The notes under the pieces are model-generated. The model was given only the letters and a program-made list of their open reading frames with translations. It was not told the origin of the DNA and ran no database searches. From the IMG/VR virus record IMGVR_UViG_2541047714_000007: a stretch of DNA of 35,964 bases; one strand, given 5' to 3'. This DNA comes from a virus. Taxonomy: Duplodnaviria > Heunggongvirae > Uroviricota > Caudoviricetes. Within the stretch, counting starts at the first letter, position 1. The number at the start of each line of letters is the position of its first letter. Made by a program: the position numbers and the translations under genes. Positions 5,181 to 35,964 of the stretch are shown piece by piece.

Positions 5181-8131
5181 CAGCGGTACTCCTTACGTTG
5201 TTTCTGAGCCAGCAGACGCTCCAGCATTTTTTCCAGCTCATGCAGGCTCATATTCAGGGCGCCAGTCAGTCCGGCAGGCGCTGTGGTTTCCCTGCCATTG
5301 AGGAAAAACTGAGGATTAAAGCTGACCTGGATACCACCAGACGTTCCACCGCCGGTTGCAGCTGCACCACGGCCTGAATATCCGGCAGCCATGATTTCAG
5401 GCGAGGGGATACGGGGAACATCCGGTGTCATCTCATTTGCCAGACGTTGCCCTGGTAAAATCGATGCCCGGGTGGAGAGCGGGATAGCGGGCATGGAAGA
5501 CAAACTATTGATTACGGCTCCGATCGCATTTTTAGCAGACGACATAAACCCGTTGATATCGGGCAACGGCATACTGAAGCGAACACCTGAAGTGTTATCC
5601 CGTATTTCTGGCCCCTGAATGCTCACGGGCATTCTGGGGAGCAGTTCACTGGCCATTCGCTGCCCGGCCAGAGCTGCAAGCGGAGTGGTCCGCTGCAGGC
5701 CAATGGCGGCCCCCTGCGCGATATTGTCACCAAAGCCCATAAACACGCGGCTCGGCGAATGAATGCCCAGCTTTTCGCTGAACCAGCCACTGATGCTGTC
5801 ACCCATTCCGGTTACACTGGATTTGAGCGACTCCCATTTGTTTTTGATACCGTTAATCAGACCATCGACAAGATGGCCACCGAAGTCGGTAAACTTTGCC
5901 GGCAGATCAACACCAAGATATTTCAGCGCAGCTGCAAAGGCTTTACAGAGCAGACCTGCCGGCGACCAGTTAATCAGCAGCTTACCAGTTCCCGCGATAC
6001 CGCCGTTAAAGGCTTCCTGAATGTCAGCCCAGCGTTGTTCAAACCAGCTACTGATGCTGTCACCCATTCCGGTTACACTGGATTTGAGCGACCCCCATTT
6101 GTTTTTGATACCGTTAATCAGACCGTCGACAAGATGGCCACCGAAGCCGGTGAACTTTGCCGGCAGAGCAACGCCGAAATATTTCAGCGCAGCCGCAAAG
6201 GCTTTATAGAGCAGGCCTGCCGGCGACCAGTTAATCAGCAACTTACCAATTCCCACAATGCCGCCGTTAAAGGCTTCCTGAATGTCAGCCCAGCGCTGTT
6301 TAAACCAGCCACTGACTGCCCCCCAGTTGCGGTAGATAAGGTAAGCTGCTGCCGCGACAGCGGTGATAACGAGACCGATGGGATTCATCATCAGCGCACG
6401 TCCAATCCAGAGAACAGCACGTCCGGCGAGCATAATTCCGCGAACCAGTCCCCCGGAGAGCACGCCACTCAGTGTTCTGGCTCCTCTGGCGACGGCGCTA
6501 AATCCGGTCACCAGCCAGCGGAGCTTACCGCCTTGCCCCAGTGCGAGCGACAGACGAAGCCAGTTGGCCCGAAGTAAAACAGCATTTTTCCAGACACTTA
6601 CAAAGGGGGAAATAAGGAGATTCAGCCCCAGTTTGAGACCAACAGTCGCTATCTTAATCGCAAGGAGCGCACTGATGAGCTTAAAAGCCCCACTGACAAA
6701 TTGCGGGTGAGTCGCTACCCAGTGTTTTGTCCCCTGAATGAGTGGGAGCAGTTCCTGAGTCAGAGAAATAAAAGATGGAGCTAATTGATCGCCCAGCGTA
6801 ATTGCCAGATCGCGACTGCTGACCATAAGTGCTTTAGTGGCTTCAAGGGGAGATTTCAGCCGCTGATCATAAGCACTGGCAAGCAAATCGTTATCCGCAG
6901 CCCTGAGAGCACCGGCGCGGATCTCGCGATATCTGTCCATGTTGGCCAGCATCGGGCGGATAAATGCCATGACCTGCATATCCGCGAACATATCACCCAG
7001 ACCAAAGTTTTTCGCCAGAGCCTGAAGTGCCTCATCTCTTGCCGTATCATTCTTTATTTTCATGGCGGATTTGAAGCCGGCCAGCGCTTCGGGGCTTTTG
7101 GCATTGAGGTAACGTTCTATAACACTCAACATCCCTTCAATCGGAGAGATCCCCGCAGCCTTATAACTCGCAATAGATCCCTGCAAATCAATACCCAGAT
7201 CAGCAAACTGTTTCTGAGTATCGCGGGCAAAAATTTTGGTAAGAAAGTTTTTAAAATTATTGGCTGCCTCGTCGGTGGAACCTGCACCGATTTTTGCTAT
7301 CTGGAGACTGGCCCCGATTTCAGCAACAGCCTCTTTTCCACTGGCAATACCCGCCATCATTGGGGCCAGGGACTGCATCCACTTGACCTGATCCGGGATT
7401 TCAAATGACCCCTGGTCACCGGCATAAGCCATAATATTCTGAACGGCACCAAAATCTCTGGCCGCACCTTTCAGGGAGTTTTGCCAGACTGCGGCCACTT
7501 TTGCCCAGTCCTGAGATGACGTGCGTGTTGCCGTTGCCGCGCGGGCAATATCCGGCATCAGAAAACCGATATCTGACAAGTTATCAATATTGTCGCTGAT
7601 GAGCGAACCCACCGCCTCCTGCAGCTCATCCTGATACTGATTGTATTTAAGCGCCCAGCCTTTTATCTGTCCGGCAAGTGCATCCCGCGTTTTATTGTCA
7701 TATTTTGCGGTGATCGACATATCAATCATTTTGTCCTGAAAAGACATGGACTGCTGAACGGCAGGGGAAACGGTATGATAAACAGTCTGTGCCATGCCAT
7801 ACGCTTCAATCCCCTGACCATACAGCGCCATGCGGTTAGCTTTCAGCGCATCACTGGTAGCGGATGCCGCTGACAGACGGCGCTGCTGGCGCTCAATTTG
7901 CTCCATGGTGCGGCTTACCCGCAGCAGCTCGCTGTTGAGATGCTGCATCCGGGAAGAACCCAGTTGACCATAACGTTCTGTTGCACGGGTTAAAGCGTTC
8001 TGACGTTCCTGCAGGCGGCGTGAGGTATCGCTCAGGGAATCAAGCGCACGGCGGGTACCGCTCATTGCAGAACGGAATGTGCTGCCAATCATCCCGCCGA
8101 TAACAACGCCGACTGAAAACTGTCCCGACAT
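5180..8131 (-). CDS. Tail tape measure protein
   Basis: 983-aa ORF, longest in the window, Ala/Gly/Ser-rich with predicted helical N-terminal part, located between tail chaperone and baseplate genes. GGAGG 8 nt upstream of the ATG at 8131. Contains a two-copy 87-aa tandem repeat. Confidence 0.9.
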   Translation of the reverse strand: MSGQFSVGVVIGGMIGSTFRSAMSGTRRALDSLSDTSRRLQERQNALTRATERYGQLGSSRMQHLNSELLRVSRTMEQIERQQRRLSAASATSDALKANRMALYGQGIEAYGMAQTVYHTVSPAVQQSMSFQDKMIDMSITAKYDNKTRDALAGQIKGWALKYNQYQDELQEAVGSLISDNIDNLSDIGFLMPDIARAATATRTSSQDWAKVAAVWQNSLKGAARDFGAVQNIMAYAGDQGSFEIPDQVKWMQSLAPMMAGIASGKEAVAEIGASLQIAKIGAGSTDEAANNFKNFLTKIFARDTQKQFADLGIDLQGSIASYKAAGISPIEGMLSVIERYLNAKSPEALAGFKSAMKIKNDTARDEALQALAKNFGLGDMFADMQVMAFIRPMLANMDRYREIRAGALRAADNDLLASAYDQRLKSPLEATKALMVSSRDLAITLGDQLAPSFISLTQELLPLIQGTKHWVATHPQFVSGAFKLISALLAIKIATVGLKLGLNLLISPFVSVWKNAVLLRANWLRLSLALGQGGKLRWLVTGFSAVARGARTLSGVLSGGLVRGIMLAGRAVLWIGRALMMNPIGLVITAVAAAAYLIYRNWGAVSGWFKQRWADIQEAFNGGIVGIGKLLINWSPAGLLYKAFAAALKYFGVALPAKFTGFGGHLVDGLINGIKNKWGSLKSSVTGMGDSISSWFEQRWADIQEAFNGGIAGTGKLLINWSPAGLLCKAFAAALKYLGVDLPAKFTDFGGHLVDGLINGIKNKWESLKSSVTGMGDSISGWFSEKLGIHSPSRVFMGFGDNIAQGAAIGLQRTTPLAALAGQRMASELLPRMPVSIQGPEIRDNTSGVRFSMPLPDINGFMSSAKNAIGAVINSLSSMPAIPLSTRASILPGQRLANEMTPDVPRIPSPEIMAAGYSGRGAAATGGGTSGGIQVSFNPQFFLNGRETTAPAGLTGALNMSLHELEKMLERLLAQKQRKEYR
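5768..6315. repeat. Tandem in-frame duplication (2 x 261 bp plus a short partial third unit) inside the tape measure gene
   Basis: Protein copies GWFKQRWADIQEAFNGGIVGIGKLLINWSPAGLLYKAF... and SWFEQRWADIQEAFNGGIAGTGKLLINWSPAGLLCKAF... are near-identical. On DNA, the unit starting near 5768 repeats at 6029 (period 261 bp). The plus-strand shadow ORFs 5763..6020 and 6021..6209 also have near-identical translations. Confidence 0.9.
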
Positions 8132-31939: not shown

Positions 31940-32381
31940 ACAACGTCTTATCCAGCTCATTCATATTGCCCGTAATGAACTGGGTATGGATGAAGACACC
32001 TACCGCCAGATGTTACAGGGGCTGACCGGTAAAGCCTCAACCAAAGGAATGGATACCACACAACTAAACTGCGTGCTGGAATCCATGAAAAAGAAAGGCT
32101 TTCGCGTTAAACCAGCCAGAAAAGCCAGCTCCGGTTTACCGCTGGATAACCATCCGCAGTCCAGGAAAATTCGTGCGCTATGGCTTGAAATGGCTGCTGC
32201 CGGCATTGTTCGTGACCGTTCAGAAAATGCATTAGCGAGGTGGATCAAGCGGGAAACGGGCATCAGCGCCCTGCGCTGGCTCAGTACTGAACAGGCAAGC
32301 AGTGTTATTGAGAAACTGAAGAAGTGGCAGCGCAGAGCTGCGGGAGTCAAACATGAGCGACCTGAATCAGTTTCGAAGTAA
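31929..32381 (+). CDS. gemA: GemA-like protein (Mu gp16 family)
   Basis: Start at ATGATG 31929 with AAGGAG upstream; sits immediately upstream of the Mor-like gene, as gemA does in Mu. Confidence 0.65.
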   Translation: MMTKQRLIQLIHIARNELGMDEDTYRQMLQGLTGKASTKGMDTTQLNCVLESMKKKGFRVKPARKASSGLPLDNHPQSRKIRALWLEMAAAGIVRDRSENALARWIKRETGISALRWLSTEQASSVIEKLKKWQRRAAGVKHERPESVSK

Positions 32382-32739
32382 AGGGCCGGAACTCCTGGTG
32401 GAGCTGGCACAGCATACCTCTGAGACCGTTCGCGAGATTATTGATATTGAGCCCGAAGTTGCCGACCAGATTGGTCAGGCCGTCGCGAACCGCATGATGC
32501 AGGTCTGGGGCGGGCAAAACGTTTATTTTCCTATGGGGATGAGATGGAAGATAAGCCAGCGTGACCGTGAAATCTATGAGGCGTTTAACGGACGTAACCA
32601 CCACGAACTGTCCCGCAGATTCAGGGTTTCAGTTCCCTGGATTTACAACCTGGTGAAGCGCGTAAGAAAGGAAGAAATCAGCCGGTTGCAGGGGCAGTTA
32701 TTCGAAGACGATGATGAACCGGATGACAGCCGGGATTAA
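32353..32739 (+). CDS. mor: Mor/C-family transcriptional activator
   Basis: 128 aa, acidic C-terminus, central region ...YFPMGMRWKISQRDREIYEAFNGRNHHELSRRFRVSVPWIYNLVKRVR... characteristic of the Mor family; located at the end of the early operon. Confidence 0.75.
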   Translation: MSDLNQFRSKGPELLVELAQHTSETVREIIDIEPEVADQIGQAVANRMMQVWGGQNVYFPMGMRWKISQRDREIYEAFNGRNHHELSRRFRVSVPWIYNLVKRVRKEEISRLQGQLFEDDDEPDDSRD

Positions 32740-32756
32740 TCAAAAGCGAGGTGATA

Positions 32757-32993
32757 ATGCGCTATAAAACCCCCAACAGCGCCCCCCTGAAGAAGGCAGA
32801 CCATGCAGATATGGCGATGGAAATTATCCGGCATTTTTTTGACGGTCTGACTTCTGCTGAGGCGAGATATGTTCTCCGGGAATGCGACAGGCTGATTGAC
32901 AACTCGCGCCTGCATATCGGGCCTGATGAAAATTGTGTTTTGTATTACGGGAAAGTTTTACGTAACCCACCACCACCGCCACCAAAGTGTTAA
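32757..32993 (+). CDS. Hypothetical small protein with poly-Pro C-terminus
   Basis: Start at the ATG at 32757 with GCGAGG 6 nt upstream; ends ...NPPPPPPKC. Confidence 0.4.
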   Translation: MRYKTPNSAPLKKADHADMAMEIIRHFFDGLTSAEARYVLRECDRLIDNSRLHIGPDENCVLYYGKVLRNPPPPPPKC

Positions 32994-33021
32994 CGAACGT
33001 CAATAAATTCCCGGTTTATGA

Positions 33022-33055
33022 AAAGCGCAATGGATAACCTGTTGCGCTTTTTTTA
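33022..33055 (+). terminator. Rho-independent terminator at the end of the early operon
   Basis: Stem AAAGCGCAA (33022-33030) / TTGCGCTTT (33042-33050) with an 11-nt loop, followed by a T-run. Confidence 0.65.
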
Positions 33056-33087
33056 TTCTGGCAGAAAAACATATCACCGGAGGAAAT

Positions 33088-33732
33088 ATGTTTGATGCAT
33101 CCTTGCTGAATCTGCCATGGGCAACGCTGGTGACGCTCACCAGTGGTTATATCGGCTATTTTATTGCGAACGTGGGGCTGAAGAACCATCACAAACCCAT
33201 TGAGGTGACGTTTTCGACGCTGATTTTTGGTTTGCTGTCAATGATGGTTTACCAGGCTGTTATGTGGGCAGGTCTGAATTCGTGGCTGGCGACACCTCCA
33301 ACACTTCTTTGCGCTTTTGCATACGCTGCATTATGGAGAAAATATGGGCGTAAATGGATGTACAGATTCCTCAGAAATAAGGATATATCATGGTCTGATG
33401 ATACCCCCTCTGCCTGGATGCGTATGTTTGATCAACATGGATACTATATCAGCGAGGCGTATGTCTATCTGAAGAATGGTACTGTGCTGCTTTCTGAAAA
33501 TCCGGGGAAATTTGAAGGCCAGGCCAGCGGTTCTTTTGTGTTAGGAGTGGAAAAAGACATAGTGATGTATGTCACTCATGAAAAAAAACCGGGGCGCGAT
33601 GAATGGATTGAAAAAGATGTTGAAAGTAAAAGCTGGGGAGCGATGGCAACCTATATCCCTGCAGATCAGATTGCCATGGTGAGGATCAGACGAACCAGAA
33701 ATAAAGCTATTAGCGCACGGCAGAAAGATTAG
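33088..33732 (+). CDS. Membrane protein (3 predicted TM helices + soluble C-terminal domain), function unknown
   Basis: 214 aa; hydrophobic segments WATLVTLTSGYIGYFIANVGL, VTFSTLIFGLLSMMVYQAVMWAGL and PPTLLCAFAYAALW; GGAGG upstream; gene visibly more AT-rich than the flanking phage genes. Confidence 0.6.
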   Translation: MFDASLLNLPWATLVTLTSGYIGYFIANVGLKNHHKPIEVTFSTLIFGLLSMMVYQAVMWAGLNSWLATPPTLLCAFAYAALWRKYGRKWMYRFLRNKDISWSDDTPSAWMRMFDQHGYYISEAYVYLKNGTVLLSENPGKFEGQASGSFVLGVEKDIVMYVTHEKKPGRDEWIEKDVESKSWGAMATYIPADQIAMVRIRRTRNKAISARQKD

Positions 33733-34027
33733 TCCCGTGGTGGCGGTGCATCGTCATCAGACTGAGAAGAACGGTTATCTGATGAATCGCCTGATGGTCC
33801 ATAACGTTCTGACTCAAAGGTAACGCATCCTTTCATATCTTCGGAAAAGTCAGATGGGTTGCTATTTTTATCGGGCATGGGCAATATTTCTCCATTCACG
33901 GAACACGGATTAGAAATTTTACCACTCATATTCTCTGTTTTTTGTGAACTGCTACCGTTTCACATACAGCAAAACAATTTCATAAAATTATTCGGTAGCA
34001 TTCGTTTTAACCCACTCCCGTTCGAAA

Positions 34028-34060
34028 TTATCTCACGAATCACCATTCATTTATCTCACG
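34028..34060 (+). repeat. Direct repeat TTATCTCACG x2 in an AT-rich non-coding region
   Basis: Copies at 34028-34037 and 34051-34060, 23 bp apart, upstream of the TraR-like gene. Confidence 0.4.
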
Positions 34061-34120
34061 TCCCTTCACATTGATTCAGCATCAGAAATCGAAGAATTAC
34101 AGCGCAATACAGCAATAAAA

Positions 34121-34276
34121 ATGCGTCGTCTGAACTACCAGACTGTATCCGCAACTCATTGTTGTGAGTGTGGCGATCCGATAGATGAGCGAAGACGCCT
34201 GGCTGTTCAGGGTTGTCGGACTTGTGCAAGTTGCCAGGAGGAGATCGAACTTAAGAACAAACAATGGGGACTATGA
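34121..34276 (+). CDS. TraR/DksA-family C4 zinc-finger protein
   Basis: 51-aa ORF (below the ORF-track size cut-off) MRRLNYQTVSATHCCECGDPIDERRRLAVQGCRTCASCQEEIELKNKQWGL with the C-x2-C-x17-C-x2-C spacing of the DksA/TraR family. Confidence 0.55.
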   Translation: MRRLNYQTVSATHCCECGDPIDERRRLAVQGCRTCASCQEEIELKNKQWGL

Positions 34277-34323
34277 TGGCCTCAAAGCAGCAAATTTCAA
34301 CATCGTCCAACTGAGGTGTAAAA

Positions 34324-34602
34324 ATGTTCAGAATCATTTTTCCTAACACCTGGTACGTCGACCACCACGGCACTCCCTGCAAAATCCTGCGTTCTACCCA
34401 CAACAAAGTTCACTACATCCGAAAAGGCAGAACATGTATCGCCAGCATGTTCCGCTTTAATCATGACTTTGAACCTGTGAATAAAGCTGATGCAGATCGG
34501 ATAGCAGAAGAGATCGAAACGGCAGAACACATTAAGAAGTTACGTGACATGCGTTCAAAAAGCAGAGGTAACCATGGAATCATACAGCCTCACACTCGAT
34601 GA
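34324..34602 (+). CDS. Hypothetical protein
   Basis: 92-aa ORF with GAGGTG 5 nt upstream of the ATG; 3' end overlaps the excisionase start. Confidence 0.45.
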   Translation: MFRIIFPNTWYVDHHGTPCKILRSTHNKVHYIRKGRTCIASMFRFNHDFEPVNKADADRIAEEIETAEHIKKLRDMRSKSRGNHGIIQPHTR

Positions 34603-34945
34603 GGCCTGTCAGTTTCTTAAGATATCCAGACCAACCGCCACCAACTGGATACGAACAGGCCGCCTACAGGCAACACGTAAAGATCCAACCAAGCCAAAAT
34701 CTCCTTACCTCACAACACGGCAAGCCTGCATTGCGGCGCTTCAGTCTCCGCTGCATACTGTCCAGGTGAGCGCGGGTGATGGCATAACAGAGGAAAGAAA
34801 ATGTCACTCTTCCGCAGAAATGAAATATGGTATGCCTCGTATTCGCTCCCGGGCGGGAAACGAATTAAGGAATCTCTTGGCACAAAGGACAAGCGGCAAG
34901 CTCAGGAGTTGCACGACAAGCGAAAAGCAGAACTCTGGCGAGTAG
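34574..34945 (+). CDS. xis: Excisionase (Xis-family DNA-binding protein); 3' end uncertain
   Basis: Start at the ATG at 34574 ([32 protein letters not shown]...) with GAGGT 4 nt upstream. The open frame overlaps the integrase start by 145 nt. Confidence 0.6.
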
Positions 34946-35964
34946 AAAAGCTAGGGGATTTACCTGATGTCACTTTTGAAGAGGCCTGCCTAAGATGGCT
35001 TGAGGAAAAAGCTGATAAAAAATCTCTCGATTCAGATAAAAGCCGGATTGAGTTCTGGCTTGAACATTTTGAGGGTATAAGGCTTAAAGATATCTCGGAG
35101 GCAAAGATTTACTCTGCTGTAAGCAGAATGCATAACAGAAAGACGAAAGAAATATGGAAACAGAAAGTTCAGGCCGCCATCAGGAAAGGTAAAGAACTGC
35201 CTGTTTATGAACCAAAGCCAGTATCAACTCAGACAAAGGCAAAGCATCTTGCCATGATAAAGGCCATTCTCCGTGCTGCAGAACGCGACTGGAAGTGGCT
35301 GGAAAAAGCGCCTGTCATCAAGATACCAGCGGTCAGAAACAAGCGAGTCAGATGGCTGGAAAAGGAGGAAGCAAAACGCCTTATTGATGAGTGCCCCGAA
35401 CCACTGAAATCTGTCGTCAAGTTTGCGCTGGCAACTGGTCTGAGAAAGTCGAACATCATAAATCTGGAATGGCAACAAATCGACATGCAGCGACGAGTTG
35501 CCTGGGTGAATCCAGAAGAGAGCAAATCAAACCGCGCCATTGGTGTGGCGCTGAACGATACCGCCTGTAAAGTGTTGCGTGATCAAATAGGCAAGCATCA
35601 CAAATGGGTGTTTGTACATACCAAGGCGGCTAAGCGAGCAGATGGAACATCAACGCCTGCGGTCAGGAAGATGCGCATCGACAGCAAGACATCATGGCTA
35701 TCAGCTTGTCGTCGTGCAGGAATTGAAGATTTCCGTTTCCATGACCTCAGACACACCTGGGCAAGCTGGCTGATTCAGTCAGGCGTCCCATTATCAGTGC
35801 TTCAGGAAATGGGCGGATGGGAGTCCATAGAAATGGTTCGTAGGTATGCTCACCTTGCGCCTAATCATTTGACAGAGCATGCGAGGAAAATAGACGACAT
35901 TTTTGGTGATAATGTCCCAAATATGTCCCACTCTGGAATTATGGAGGATATAAAGAAGGCGTAA
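34801..35964 (+). CDS. int: Tyrosine integrase, lambdoid (DLP12 IntD-like)
   Basis: 387 aa; N-terminus [40 protein letters not shown] and C-terminal catalytic region [47 protein letters not shown] closely match my recollection of E. coli prophage integrase IntD. Stop codon is the last 3 bases of the window. Confidence 0.9.

What the first reader, a model, noticed from the sequence alone, without database searches (positions are those of the whole stretch)
33088..33929. AT-rich stand-alone membrane protein gene next to the Int/Xis module: candidate superinfection-exclusion or abortive-infection moron
The gene follows a strong terminator, has its own RBS, and is markedly more AT-rich than the flanking phage genes, all signs of a horizontally acquired moron. 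The product has three N-terminal TM helices and a roughly 120-aa soluble domain with no recognisable motif. Single membrane proteins in this kind of location often encode exclusion or Abi functions. An antisense 66-aa acidic ORF (33,729-33,929) overlaps its 3' end; it has a weak RBS and may be non-coding.
Basis: partly seen in the sequence, partly recalled or inferred. Interest (0 to 1): 0.6.

Follow-up and report, generated by a model that had tools for sequence, protein, structure and literature searches.

The report
Membrane protein plus proline-tailed microprotein cassette
The AT-rich membrane-protein gene is real, but it is not a stand-alone gene of the Int/Xis phage: it is one half of a conserved and uncharacterised two-gene cargo cassette at the very end of a Mu-like transposable prophage, and its partner is the "antisense ORF", a genuine 49-residue proline-tailed protein.

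Summary
The sequence features hold. The gene is at 33088-33732, preceded by a hairpin terminator and a GGAGG ribosome-binding site. Its GC is 45% against 55% for the phage. The product has three TM helices.

The context is wrong. Identical DNA in 10 E. coli genomes stops at 34068 and different host genes follow, so 34068 is the end of a BcepMu-type transposable prophage. Int/Xis belongs to a lambdoid prophage into which it inserted.

Relatives with 73-100% identical Mor carry the cassette in 20 loci and lack it in 27, so it is accessory cargo (a moron).

The product is a sub-threshold DUF6338 relative. Its cytoplasmic domain models as an Sm/LSm-like beta-barrel.

The antisense ORF is a real gene (33729-33878, 49 aa):
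- A convergent, stop-abutting small ORF occurs in 44 of 51 distinct homologue loci, in Enterobacterales and Alphaproteobacteria.
- 39 of those end in a proline-rich tail, against 3 of 427 control genes.
- dN/dS is 0.005-0.2.
- It has a conserved promoter of its own.
- Similar proline-rich small proteins beside a DUF6338 gene were detected by mass spectrometry in P. stutzeri.

Function is untested. My best guess is a self-regulated, membrane-acting module, toxin-antitoxin-like, abortive-infection or exclusion. No known defence, TA, exclusion, holin or channel family matches.

The parts
32757..32993 (+). Upstream 78-aa ORF ('orf80') ending in NPPPPPPKC. It is extra cargo in the E. coli lineage only. 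It is possibly a second proline-tailed protein, and it is not homologous to the small partner.
   Evidence: Annotated by PGAP as WP_001610543.1. It does not match the partner profile. It has no Pfam, PHROG, PADLOC or NCBIfam hit.
33020..33057 (+). Hairpin plus T-run, acting as an intrinsic terminator that insulates the cassette from the early operon. An A-tract on its 5' side makes it potentially bidirectional.
   Evidence: Found by the terminator scan. Free energy is -13.1 kcal/mol. It is conserved in 10 lineages, with compensatory changes in 6 of 13 pairs.
33031..33059 (+). Possible weak promoter overlapping the terminator (TGGATA, 17 nt, TATTCT). This is an inference only.
   Evidence: The loop motif (T)GGAT and the TATTCT after the T-run are conserved across lineages. 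The consensus scan did not report it.
33079..33083 (+). Shine-Dalgarno GGAGG of the membrane-protein gene.
   Evidence: Read directly from the sequence.
33088..33732 (+). Gene for a 214-aa inner-membrane protein, a DUF6338-like member of PHROG 12870. It has three TM helices and an N-out/C-in topology.
   Evidence: ORF. PHROG 12870 at E 7e-92. DUF6338 at 16.3 bits, with 21 of 40 relatives also hitting it. AF2 model. Family alignment.
33118..33345 (+). Transmembrane region (TM1 residues 11-28, TM2 37-60, TM3 65 to about 86). TM1 carries the invariant G20-Y21-x2-Y24-x2-A27-x2-G30 motif.
   Evidence: Loop 1 (KNHHK) and the segment after TM3 (WRKYGRKWMYRFLRNK) are both basic, which places them in the cytoplasm.
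33430..33702 (+). Cytoplasmic Sm/LSm-like small beta-barrel domain (residues about 115-205).
33729..33878 (-). Convergent partner gene for a 49-aa acidic, serine/aspartate/proline-rich protein ending in APPPRD. Its CDS overlaps the membrane gene's CDS by 4 nt at the stop codons.
   Evidence: Conserved in 44 of 51 loci. dN/dS is 0.005-0.2. The 49-aa form is called on 254 contigs and the 66-aa form on 2.
33890..33893 (-). Shine-Dalgarno GGAG of the small gene, 11 nt upstream of the ATG at 33878.
   Evidence: Read from the sequence.
33916..33924 (-). Extended -10 promoter element TGgTAAAAT of the small gene.
   Evidence: The position, 43-49 nt from the ATG, is conserved. Other enteric lineages have TTGAAA, 18 nt, TAGAAT at the same place.
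33955..34068 (.). Terminal region of the Mu-like prophage. It holds the repeats TTATCTCACG at 34028-34037 and 34051-34060. These are likely transposase-binding sites, which is an inference. The phage ends ...TTCA at 34068.
   Evidence: Identity to 10 E. coli genomes stops at 34068 and different host genes follow. The homologous terminal region follows mor directly in relatives that lack the cassette. A 6-bp direct repeat TCTGGC flanks the prophage in strain R9.

Best explanation
Shown:
- The gene is the membrane component of a self-contained two-gene accessory cassette. The cassette sits between mor and the terminal transposase-binding region of a BcepMu-type transposable prophage.
- Component 1 is a 214-aa inner-membrane protein. 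It has three TM helices, an N-out/C-in topology, and a cytoplasmic Sm/LSm-like beta-barrel.
- Component 2 is a 49-aa compositionally disordered (inferred), acidic, proline-tailed protein. It is encoded convergently, and its stop codon overlaps that of component 1.
- The small gene has its own conserved sigma-70 promoter, next to the phage's terminal region.
- The membrane gene follows a conserved terminator.

Inferred mechanism:
- No terminator lies between the two genes, so each transcript must run antisense into the other. The better-promoted small gene would therefore damp expression of the membrane gene.
- At the protein level, the small protein's short motifs would dock onto the Sm/SH3-like barrel and hold the membrane protein inactive. 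These motifs are an aromatic-x-E-x-P-K core and a PxxP-plus-charged-residue tail.
- The balance could be lost through infection by another phage, host shut-off, or loss of the labile small protein. The membrane protein would then oligomerise, as Sm barrels typically do, and act on the inner membrane. The outcome would be abortive infection, exclusion, or a toxin-antitoxin-like addiction of the prophage.
For: Context:
- The phage end is at 34068, with unrelated host flanks in 10 genomes.
- A target-site duplication flanks the prophage in strain R9.
- The block containing Int/Xis is shared with lambdoid phages.

Accessory status:
- The cassette is present in 20 and absent in 27 loci among Mor-related phages.
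- Cassette GC is 43.6-45.4% against 54.9% for the phage.
- The same pair sits after Mor in Klebsiella, Serratia and Salmonella Mu-like prophages.
- It also occurs in non-Mu contexts, next to TA or defence-type genes, in Bartonella and Allosphingosinicella.

The partner is real:
- 44 of 51 distinct loci have a convergent abutting ORF. 39 of these carry a proline-rich tail, against 3 of 427 control genes.
- dN/dS is 0.14 for the window versus the L026 homologue (82% identical membrane protein; the top database relative at that identity is from Proteus mirabilis). It is 0.005 for L018 versus L020.
- It has a conserved promoter and a conserved start.
- The 49-aa form is called on 254 contigs.
- Mass spectrometry detected proline-rich small proteins ending in PPPPKK next to a DUF6338 gene in P. 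stutzeri (PMC10433244). SEP2 matches the partner profile better than 499 of 500 shuffles.

Fold and topology:
- AF2 mean pLDDT is 84.5.

Antisense geometry:
- The only terminator-like site is upstream of the membrane gene. It is conserved and flanked by an A-tract.
Against: - No toxicity, binding or phage-resistance data exist.
- PADLOC has no hit.
- In P. stutzeri the small proteins are on the same strand as the DUF6338 gene, so antisense control cannot be universal.
- Some loci have an intact membrane gene without a recognisable partner (L012, L047, L057, L112). This argues against an obligate antitoxin. For L012, a second copy with a partner sits in the same genome.
- The promoter of the membrane gene is only inferred. 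If the gene is expressed only by read-through of the early operon, it would be a lytic-cycle gene rather than a lysogen-expressed defence gene.
- Enteric partner tails are variable (APPPRD, PPAPLNNK, PSLPFPSEE).
Confidence: 0.4

Rival explanations
1. A single stand-alone inner-membrane protein is expressed from the prophage and blocks DNA entry or aborts infection. The antisense ORF is irrelevant.
For: - It is a membrane protein with a moron-like position and low GC.
- Some homologue loci lack the partner.
Against: - The partner is conserved in 44 of 51 loci under purifying selection and has its own promoter.
- No homology to known Sie or Abi proteins was found.
- The Int/Xis context that motivated the idea is wrong.
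Confidence: 0.12
2. The cassette serves the phage's own lytic development. The membrane protein is made by read-through of the early or middle transcript. It could, for example, tether phage or host factors carrying proline tails to the membrane, or modulate the timing of lysis or host take-over. The small protein, expressed in the lysogen, keeps it silent in the prophage.
For: - The gene lies co-directionally at the distal end of the early operon, after Mor.
- No strong promoter of its own was found.
- In the E. coli lineage the upstream ORF also ends in a polyproline tail.
- The TM part shows a weak resemblance to 3-TM LydA-type holins (E about 0.04, not significant).
Against: - The cassette is dispensable, since 27 of 47 testable relatives lack it.
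- It occurs outside Mu-like phages and outside recognisable prophages.
- A conserved terminator separates it from the early operon.
Confidence: 0.2
3. The Sm-like domain makes this a membrane-tethered RNA- or ssDNA-binding ring, analogous to Hfq or LSm. It would capture nucleic acid at the membrane, and the small acidic protein would act as a nucleic-acid mimic or competitor.
For: - The fold is Sm/LSm.
- The sequence has an Sm1-like stretch, LKNGT...G...D.VM.
- The enteric partners are strongly acidic, net charge -7 in the window.
Against: - The canonical RNA-pocket residues (Asn of Sm1, Arg-Gly of Sm2) are not conserved as such.
- The window protein gave no Pfam LSM or Hfq hit at E<=1, and none of the 40 family members hit one at E<=0.01.
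- The alphaproteobacterial partners are basic, not acidic.
Confidence: 0.1
4. The small ORF is only a cis-regulatory device, either an antisense RNA or a polyproline ribosome-stalling leader. Its peptide has no function of its own.
For: - The convergent, stop-overlapping geometry is strictly conserved.
- From established knowledge, PPP motifs stall ribosomes without EF-P.
Against: - Amino-acid sequence is under purifying selection throughout, not only at the tail.
- Motifs outside the tail are conserved.
- The P. stutzeri counterparts are on the same strand and are abundant, stable peptides.
Confidence: 0.06
5. The small proteins are precursors of secreted or modified proline-rich peptides (bacteriocin or RiPP-like). 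The membrane protein would be their exporter or immunity factor.
For: - Some loci have tandem arrays of 3 small genes (Sphingobium L022; P. stutzeri).
- The paper notes that DUF6338 occurs in biosynthetic clusters.
- The peptides resemble proline-rich antimicrobial peptides.
Against: - No modification enzymes, signal peptide or transporter domain are present.
- The peptides were detected unmodified, at 98-100% coverage for the two whose records I read, in a study that analysed no membrane fraction.
Confidence: 0.05

Closest known systems
Pfam DUF6338 (PF19865) and PHROG 12870
   Same: The protein is a full-length match to PHROG 12870 (E 7e-92). It is a sub-threshold match to DUF6338, and 21 of 40 relatives also hit DUF6338. 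Length is about 200 aa, with N-terminal TM helices.
   Different: The window protein scores 16.3 bits, below the gathering score of 26.5 bits. Both families are annotated only as 'unknown function', so membership explains nothing about mechanism.
P. stutzeri DUF6338 gene plus three proline-rich small proteins (Anal Chem 2023, PMC10433244)
   Same: A DUF6338 gene sits immediately beside proteins of under 50 aa that are proline-rich and end in PPPPKK. SEP2 matches the partner profile. The peptides are proven by mass spectrometry.
   Different: There the small genes are on the same strand and tandem, and here the partner is convergent with overlapping stops. The authors reported the peptides as not conserved beyond P. 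stutzeri. SEP1 is not significantly similar. No function is known there either.
Sm/LSm/Hfq small beta-barrel domains, including peptide-binding LSm domains such as Edc3, and SH3 domains
   Same: The fold of residues about 115-205 matches. The sequence has an Sm1-like LKNGT stretch. From established knowledge, such barrels form rings and/or bind short linear motifs.
   Different: This domain is membrane-anchored by three TM helices. There is no sequence-level Pfam match. RNA-pocket residues are not conserved. Oligomeric state is unknown.
MscS-type mechanosensitive channels (three TM helices plus an Sm-like beta domain)
   Same: The gross architecture and N-out/C-in topology are the same.
Type I toxin-antitoxin pairs with convergent, 3'-overlapping genes (for example txpA/RatA and bsrG/SR4, from my own knowledge)
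   Same: The pair combines a membrane protein gene with a convergent overlapping transcription unit that has its own stronger promoter. The location is a prophage.
   Different: The 'toxin' here is 214 aa with a folded domain, not a peptide of under 60 aa. The convergent unit encodes a conserved protein rather than a non-coding RNA. Toxicity is untested.
Phage morons and superinfection-exclusion membrane proteins (HK97 gp15, P22 SieA/SieB, T4 Imm, from my own knowledge)
   Same: It is accessory cargo with deviant GC, is bounded by a terminator, encodes a membrane protein, and is variably present among related phages.
   Different: There is no sequence or fold similarity to any of them. It has a two-gene architecture. 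Expression from the lysogen has not been shown.

Membership tests
Pfam DUF6338 (PF19865) | HMM score at or above the gathering threshold (26.5 bits). | tested here: not met
   The window protein scores 16.3 bits, E 0.0075. 21 of 40 homologues hit at E<=0.01, best 1.4e-6. Several relatives are precomputed as PF19865. It is therefore a divergent relative rather than a threshold-passing member.
PHROG 12870 | Full-length significant match to the family profile. | tested here: met
   E 6.9e-92, residues 1-205 against profile positions 1-206 of 210.
Sm/LSm fold | Five-stranded, strongly bent small beta-barrel superposable on Sm proteins. | tested here: met
Sm/LSm fold | Ring oligomerisation (hexamer or heptamer) and a uridine-binding pocket (Asn of Sm1, Arg-Gly of Sm2). 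| tested here: inconclusive
   D157 and R201 are invariant, but the Asn position is Tyr and the RG motif is RR or R-x. Oligomeric state is not testable with these tools.
MscS-like channel | Homology of the TM3 plus beta-domain core (Pfam MS_channel) and a structural match to MscS. | tested here: not met
Known anti-phage defence systems (PADLOC-DB v2) | Match of any component to a defence-system HMM. | tested here: not met
   Zero families at E<=1 for the membrane protein, the small protein and orf80.
Phage moron | Present in some and absent from other closely related phages at the same position. | tested here: met
   Present in 20 and absent in 27 loci among phages with 73-100% identical Mor. 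In the largest group of loci that lack it, mor is followed by about 161 nt of terminal sequence and then host DNA. A few other groups carry a different gene there.
Phage moron | Base composition deviating from the host phage. | tested here: met
   45.4% for the CDS and 43.6% for the cassette, against 54.9% for the phage. This is the 2.4th percentile.
Phage moron | Own promoter and terminator, and expression from the repressed prophage. | tested here: inconclusive
   The upstream terminator is conserved. The small gene has a conserved sigma-70 promoter. The membrane gene's promoter is only a weak inferred match. Expression is not testable here.
Toxin-antitoxin module | Two adjacent co-conserved genes, one small and labile. 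| tested here: met
   Co-occurrence in 44 of 51 loci. The small product is compositionally disordered: 10 Ser, 9 Asp and 6 Pro in 49 aa. Lability itself is not tested.
Toxin-antitoxin module | Toxicity of one partner, neutralised by the other. | not testable with these tools
   This needs expression experiments.
Superinfection-exclusion proteins (SieA, SieB, Imm, Cor, HK97 gp15) | Homology to a characterised exclusion protein, or a demonstrated block of DNA entry. | tested here: not met
   No Pfam, PHROG-annotated, PADLOC or NCBIfam match. The phenotype is not testable.
Mu-like (BcepMu-type) transposable prophage (the context of the gene) | DDE transposase plus an AAA+/ExeA-type B protein, Gam, GemA and Mor; TG...CA ends; random insertion sites with a short target duplication. 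| tested here: met
   Gene content in PGAP annotation. Five or more different insertion sites. Ends TGAAGGG...CA and a TCTGGC direct repeat in strain R9. The ExeA homologue as a BcepMu trait is from PMC2628397.

The most novel reading that the evidence does not exclude
DUF6338-type membrane-anchored Sm-barrel proteins and their proline-tailed microproteins form a widespread, previously unrecognised two-component system, carried by Mu-like and other prophages and by genomic islands in Proteobacteria. The microprotein would be both an antisense-encoded and a protein-level regulator of a membrane effector. In other words, this would be a new class of phage-borne toxin-antitoxin or abortive-infection module. 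The orphan proline-rich small proteins found by proteomics in P. stutzeri would be its first experimentally detected members.
Probability: 0.3. Interest if true: 0.8.

Novelty: categorically new. Interest (0 to 1): 0.66.

Why it matters
- It would give a first functional handle on a Pfam domain of unknown function. The profile of this family alone recovers 527 clusters at 50% identity in public data.
- It would give a biological context to proline-rich microproteins that were seen by mass spectrometry but reported as species-specific orphans.
- It defines a cargo slot at the end of enterobacterial Mu-like prophages.
- It illustrates how small convergent genes are missed by standard annotation. 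PGAP does not call the partner in the RefSeq genomes examined.
- If the cassette is a defence or addiction module, it adds a new architecture to the repertoire: a membrane-tethered Sm barrel with a microprotein that bears short linear motifs.
- It is also a cautionary case. A Mu-like phage had transposed into a lambdoid prophage, so adjacency to Int/Xis was misleading.

Tried and rejected
- **Complex prediction.** No interface model exists.
- **afdb50 fold library.** It was unavailable.
- **Profile search of PDB sequences.** Only noise was found, with RRP4 at E 0.18.
- **MscS-like channel idea.** The architecture is similar, but no structural or sequence match was found. Rejected as membership and kept only as an analogy.
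- **Holin idea.** BFVD gives only weak (E about 0.04) matches of the TM helices to LydA-type holins. This is not significant.
- **NCBIfam and PADLOC.** Nothing was found.
- **tblastn against phage genomes.** The only hit was a 30%-identical gene in Synechococcus phage Ssp-JY41. It was not followed up.
- **orf80 as a paralogue of the small partner.** Rejected. It does not match the partner profile and shares only a polyproline tail.
- **P. stutzeri SEP1 as a homologue.** Not significant, with 86 of 500 shuffles scoring as high. SEP2 is significant, with 1 of 500.
- **Sigma-70 promoter for the membrane gene.** The consensus scan found none. Only a weak conserved candidate overlapping the terminator was seen.
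Rejected in favour of Met18.
Full report
**1. What is at the coordinates**

The ORF 33088-33732 (+) encodes 214 aa. A GGAGG lies 4 nt upstream of its ATG. The only terminator-like site in 32300-34300 is a 14-pair hairpin with a T-run at 33020-33057, about 30 nt before the gene.

The CDS has 45.4% GC and the stretch 32994-34068 has 43.6%. The rest of the phage has 54.9%. Only 2.4% of 645-nt windows in the phage are as AT-rich as the CDS.

The antisense ORF 33729-33929 (-) exists.

**2.

Megablast of 33000-34070 against complete E. coli genomes finds 10 full-length matches at 98.5-100% identity (nine at 99.9% or more). All ten end at window position 34068. One nominally runs 2 nt further, which I take as a chance match. 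Different host genes follow in different strains, among them ygfM, ycbJ, nlpA, yeiE and an L-ribulose-5-phosphate epimerase gene.

Upstream, PGAP annotates these genes in order:
- a DDE 'integrase catalytic domain' transposase
- an ExeA-family AAA+ protein
- Gam
- a DUF2786 protein
- gp16/GemA
- Mor

This is the early region of a BcepMu-type transposable phage. The ExeA homologue is a known BcepMu trait (PMC2628397). The window begins inside the P2-like tail genes of the same prophage.

Read from outside, the element begins TGAAGGGACGTGAGATAA and carries two TTATCTCACG repeats. In strain R9 the whole prophage, about 38 kb, lies between ycbJ and elyC. A direct repeat TCTGGC flanks it there.

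From 34069 onward the window is 97-99.9% identical to lambdoid phages: a DksA-like zinc-finger gene, DUF4222, Xis and a P22-type Int. In phage Turner that block is preceded by exo and RecT genes.

So a Mu-like phage transposed into a lambdoid prophage. The membrane-protein gene is the last plus-strand gene of the Mu-like element. Its proximity to Int/Xis is accidental.

**3. It is accessory cargo**

I used Mor to collect related phages (73-100% identity).
- 20 loci carry a homologue of the gene downstream of mor.
- 27 loci with enough sequence do not.
- 32 loci were too short to judge.

In the largest group of loci that lack it, mor is followed by about 161 nt of terminal sequence (...TTTATCTCAAGTCTAATCA) and then unrelated host DNA. 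A few groups carry a different gene there.

The cassette thus occupies a variable slot between mor and the terminal transposase-binding region. That satisfies the presence/absence and composition criteria of a moron.

The same gene follows Mor in otherwise different Mu-like prophages of Klebsiella, Serratia and Salmonella. More distant homologues lie in other settings:
- a Bartonella prophage, next to SocA/Panacea, HicB and HigB/RelB genes
- beside a DUF4411 and M78-peptidase pair in Allosphingosinicella
- among small hypothetical genes in Bradyrhizobium
- between a Dam methylase and an S24 repressor in another phage

**4. The protein**

PHROG 12870 (unknown function) matches over the full length at E 7e-92. 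Pfam gives only a sub-threshold DUF6338 hit, 16.3 bits against a cut-off of 26.5. However, 21 of 40 aligned relatives also hit DUF6338. PADLOC, NCBIfam and PDB sequences give nothing.

A word-indexed search found 85 relatives at 90% clustering. A profile search of 1.84 billion representatives found 527 clusters at E<=1e-3.

The family alignment shows these conserved features:
- an almost invariant first helix (LPWATLVTLxSGYxGYFIANVG)
- a basic loop (KxHHK)
- WRKYGRK after the third helix
- a conserved ISWSDDTxSAW linker
- invariant G148, G153, D157, T163, G184, I195 and R201 in the C-terminal domain

AlphaFold2 run with this alignment gives mean pLDDT 84.5. The model has helices at 11-28, 37-60 and 65-97, and a beta domain at about 120-203. 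Positive charges lie only in loop 1 and after TM3, which implies an N-out/C-in topology with a cytoplasmic beta domain.

MscS shares the three-TM plus Sm-like layout but does not appear among the matches. The viral-structure library gives only weak holin-like matches to the helices.

**5. The antisense ORF is a real, conserved partner gene**

Gene callers had already placed a small minus-strand gene directly after the homologue in Klebsiella, Bradyrhizobium, Bartonella, Serratia and Salmonella. I then examined loci from genomes, viral contigs and metagenomes.

Of 51 distinct full-length homologues with at least 200 nt downstream:
- 44 have a convergent ORF of 30-110 aa whose stop lies within -35 to +60 nt of the homologue's stop.
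- 39 of those have at least 3 prolines in their last 12 residues.
- Among other long ORFs in the same loci, 124 of 427 have any such ORF and 3 of 427 have a proline-rich tail.
- Several of the 'negatives' still carry recognisably homologous partners with weaker tails, or partners slightly further away.

The products are 40-65 aa, hydrophilic and low in complexity.
- Typical endings are PPAPLNNK, PPPSPKKK, PPPPKK, PPPAPDKD and, in the window, APPPRD.
- Enteric members share D-Y/F-S-E-x-P-K. The window has DFSEDMKG.
- Alphaproteobacterial members carry one to three N-Y/F-x-P motifs.

Codon-level comparison in the minus frame shows purifying selection:

| Pair | Synonymous differences | Non-synonymous differences | dN/dS |
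|---|---|---|---|
| Window vs L026 (82% identical membrane protein) | 20 | 20 | 0.14 |
| L018 vs L020 | 20 | 1 | about 0.005 |
| Other pairs with an unsaturated dS | – | – | mostly 0.09-0.21 (one 0.39) |

Two near-identical pairs had too few differences to be informative, and dS was saturated in three more.

The start is probably Met18 (33878):
- The L026 homologue starts there.
- GGAG lies 11 nt upstream.
- A -10 element (TGgTAAAAT, 33924-33916) lies inside the longer reading frame.
- In other enteric lineages a good promoter (TTGAAA, 18 nt, TAGAAT) sits at the same distance.
- The 49-aa form has been called on 254 contigs and the 66-aa form on 2.

The two coding sequences overlap by 4 nt at their stops (33729-33732).

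**6. Independent experimental support**

The only paper in the library that mentions DUF6338 is PMC10433244. It reports three novel proline-rich proteins of under 50 aa, detected by digest-free mass spectrometry with 44-114 spectra. Coverage was 100% and 98% for the two whose records I read.

They are encoded immediately downstream of the DUF6338 gene of P. stutzeri. Two of them end in PPPPKK and PPPPPKKGG. The authors considered them unique to P. stutzeri.

A profile of 36 partners from this study scores SEP2 at 7.5 bits, and only 1 of 500 composition-preserving shuffles reaches that. SEP1 is not significant.

Those genes lie on the same strand as the DUF6338 gene. That argues that the association is maintained at the protein level, not only through antisense RNA.

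**7. Regulation**

The hairpin upstream of the membrane gene is conserved in ten enteric lineages. Compensatory changes occur in 6 of 13 pairs, and an A-tract lies on its 5' side. It is therefore a genuine terminator that separates the cassette from the early operon, and it may be bidirectional.

The conserved loop motif TGGAT(A), together with TATTCT after the T-run, could form a weak promoter. This is inference only, and the scan did not report it.

No terminator lies between the convergent genes. Each transcript must therefore extend antisense into the other gene.

**8. Interpretation**

Shown:
- the element boundaries
- the accessory status of the cassette
- the two-gene architecture
- the coding status of the partner
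- the fold and topology, on a predicted model

Inferred:
- Together with antisense transcription, this would restrain a membrane-active, probably ring-forming protein.

The biological output could be abortive infection, exclusion or prophage addiction. It is a guess based on analogy with morons and toxin-antitoxin logic, and on occasional neighbourhood with TA and defence genes.

Points against this reading:
- Partner-less loci exist.
- The P. stutzeri arrangement is same-strand.
- No promoter is proven for the membrane gene.
- No defence-database match was found.

Rival readings are scored separately: a lytic-cycle function, a membrane-tethered RNA-binding ring, a purely regulatory small ORF, and peptide export.

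**9. Novelty**

The protein family is catalogued only as a DUF and an unannotated PHROG. I found no description of its pairing with a conserved proline-tailed microprotein, of its Sm-like domain, or of its position as terminal cargo of Mu-like prophages. Beyond the single-species proteomic report, nothing in the held literature covers this. That literature is limited to open-access PMC papers and bioRxiv preprints, and the search was a single term.

No known system passes a membership test. I therefore rate it as lying outside known kinds, while stressing that its function is untested.

Noticed in passing
window 1-34068 and 34069-35964: The window is a composite. A BcepMu-type transposable prophage has its end at 34068, and the window starts inside its P2-like tail genes. 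It is inserted into the exo-xis region of a lambdoid prophage whose DksA-like zinc-finger, DUF4222, Xis and P22-type Int genes fill 34069-35964.
   Followed up: yes
window 32757-32993 (+): The 78-aa ORF between mor and the terminator ends in NPPPPPPKC. Equivalent upstream ORFs in other lineages end in SPPPRD (L068) or PSRPPRPLSKG (L109). This may be a second class of proline-tailed ligand for the same membrane protein, or it may be coincidence. It is not homologous to the convergent partner.
   Followed up: partly
window 33959-33988 (+): A promoter-like site (TTCACA, 18 nt, TAAAAT; 10 of 12 matches) points outward through the phage end toward flanking DNA. It could drive neighbouring genes after transposition. 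On the opposite strand the same stretch contains CAGTATGTGAAAC, which is conserved in the terminal region of relatives with and without the cassette.
   Followed up: no
window 34028-34037 and 34051-34060; strain R9 locus L115 about 6270-6300: The direct repeats TTATCTCACG at this end, and GCGATAAATG-type repeats (inverted) at the other end, are likely transposase-binding sites. The prophage in strain R9 is flanked by TCTGGC, which suggests a 5-6 bp target duplication.
   Followed up: partly
L022 (Sphingobium) about 610-830 nt from the homologue's start; P. stutzeri CP036186.1 2666728-2667116: Some loci carry three tandem proline-tailed small genes instead of one. This shows copy-number variation of the partner.
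   Followed up: partly
L112 3720-4046 (-): In one distant phage homologue the convergent neighbour is not a proline-tailed microprotein. It is a 108-aa predicted lipoprotein (MNFLTKLLLVVLAFALSAC...), which may be an alternative partner.
   Followed up: no
L011 and L012 (Bartonella sp., two replicons of one genome): There are two copies of the homologue in related prophages. One has the small partner and the other has a degenerate partner region. This would be compatible with trans-complementation.
   Followed up: no
PP438431.1 (Synechococcus phage Ssp-JY41) 94-726 (-): This is the only hit in the isolated-phage collection. It is a 30%-identical homologue at the extreme end of a 20-kb cyanophage record.
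   Followed up: no
L159, L162, L163, L173, L176 and L150, downstream of mor: Some Mu-like relatives carry a different gene of about 115 aa in the slot after mor (MARPSNIDKLPEDVRAELH...). The slot therefore holds alternative cargo.
   Followed up: no
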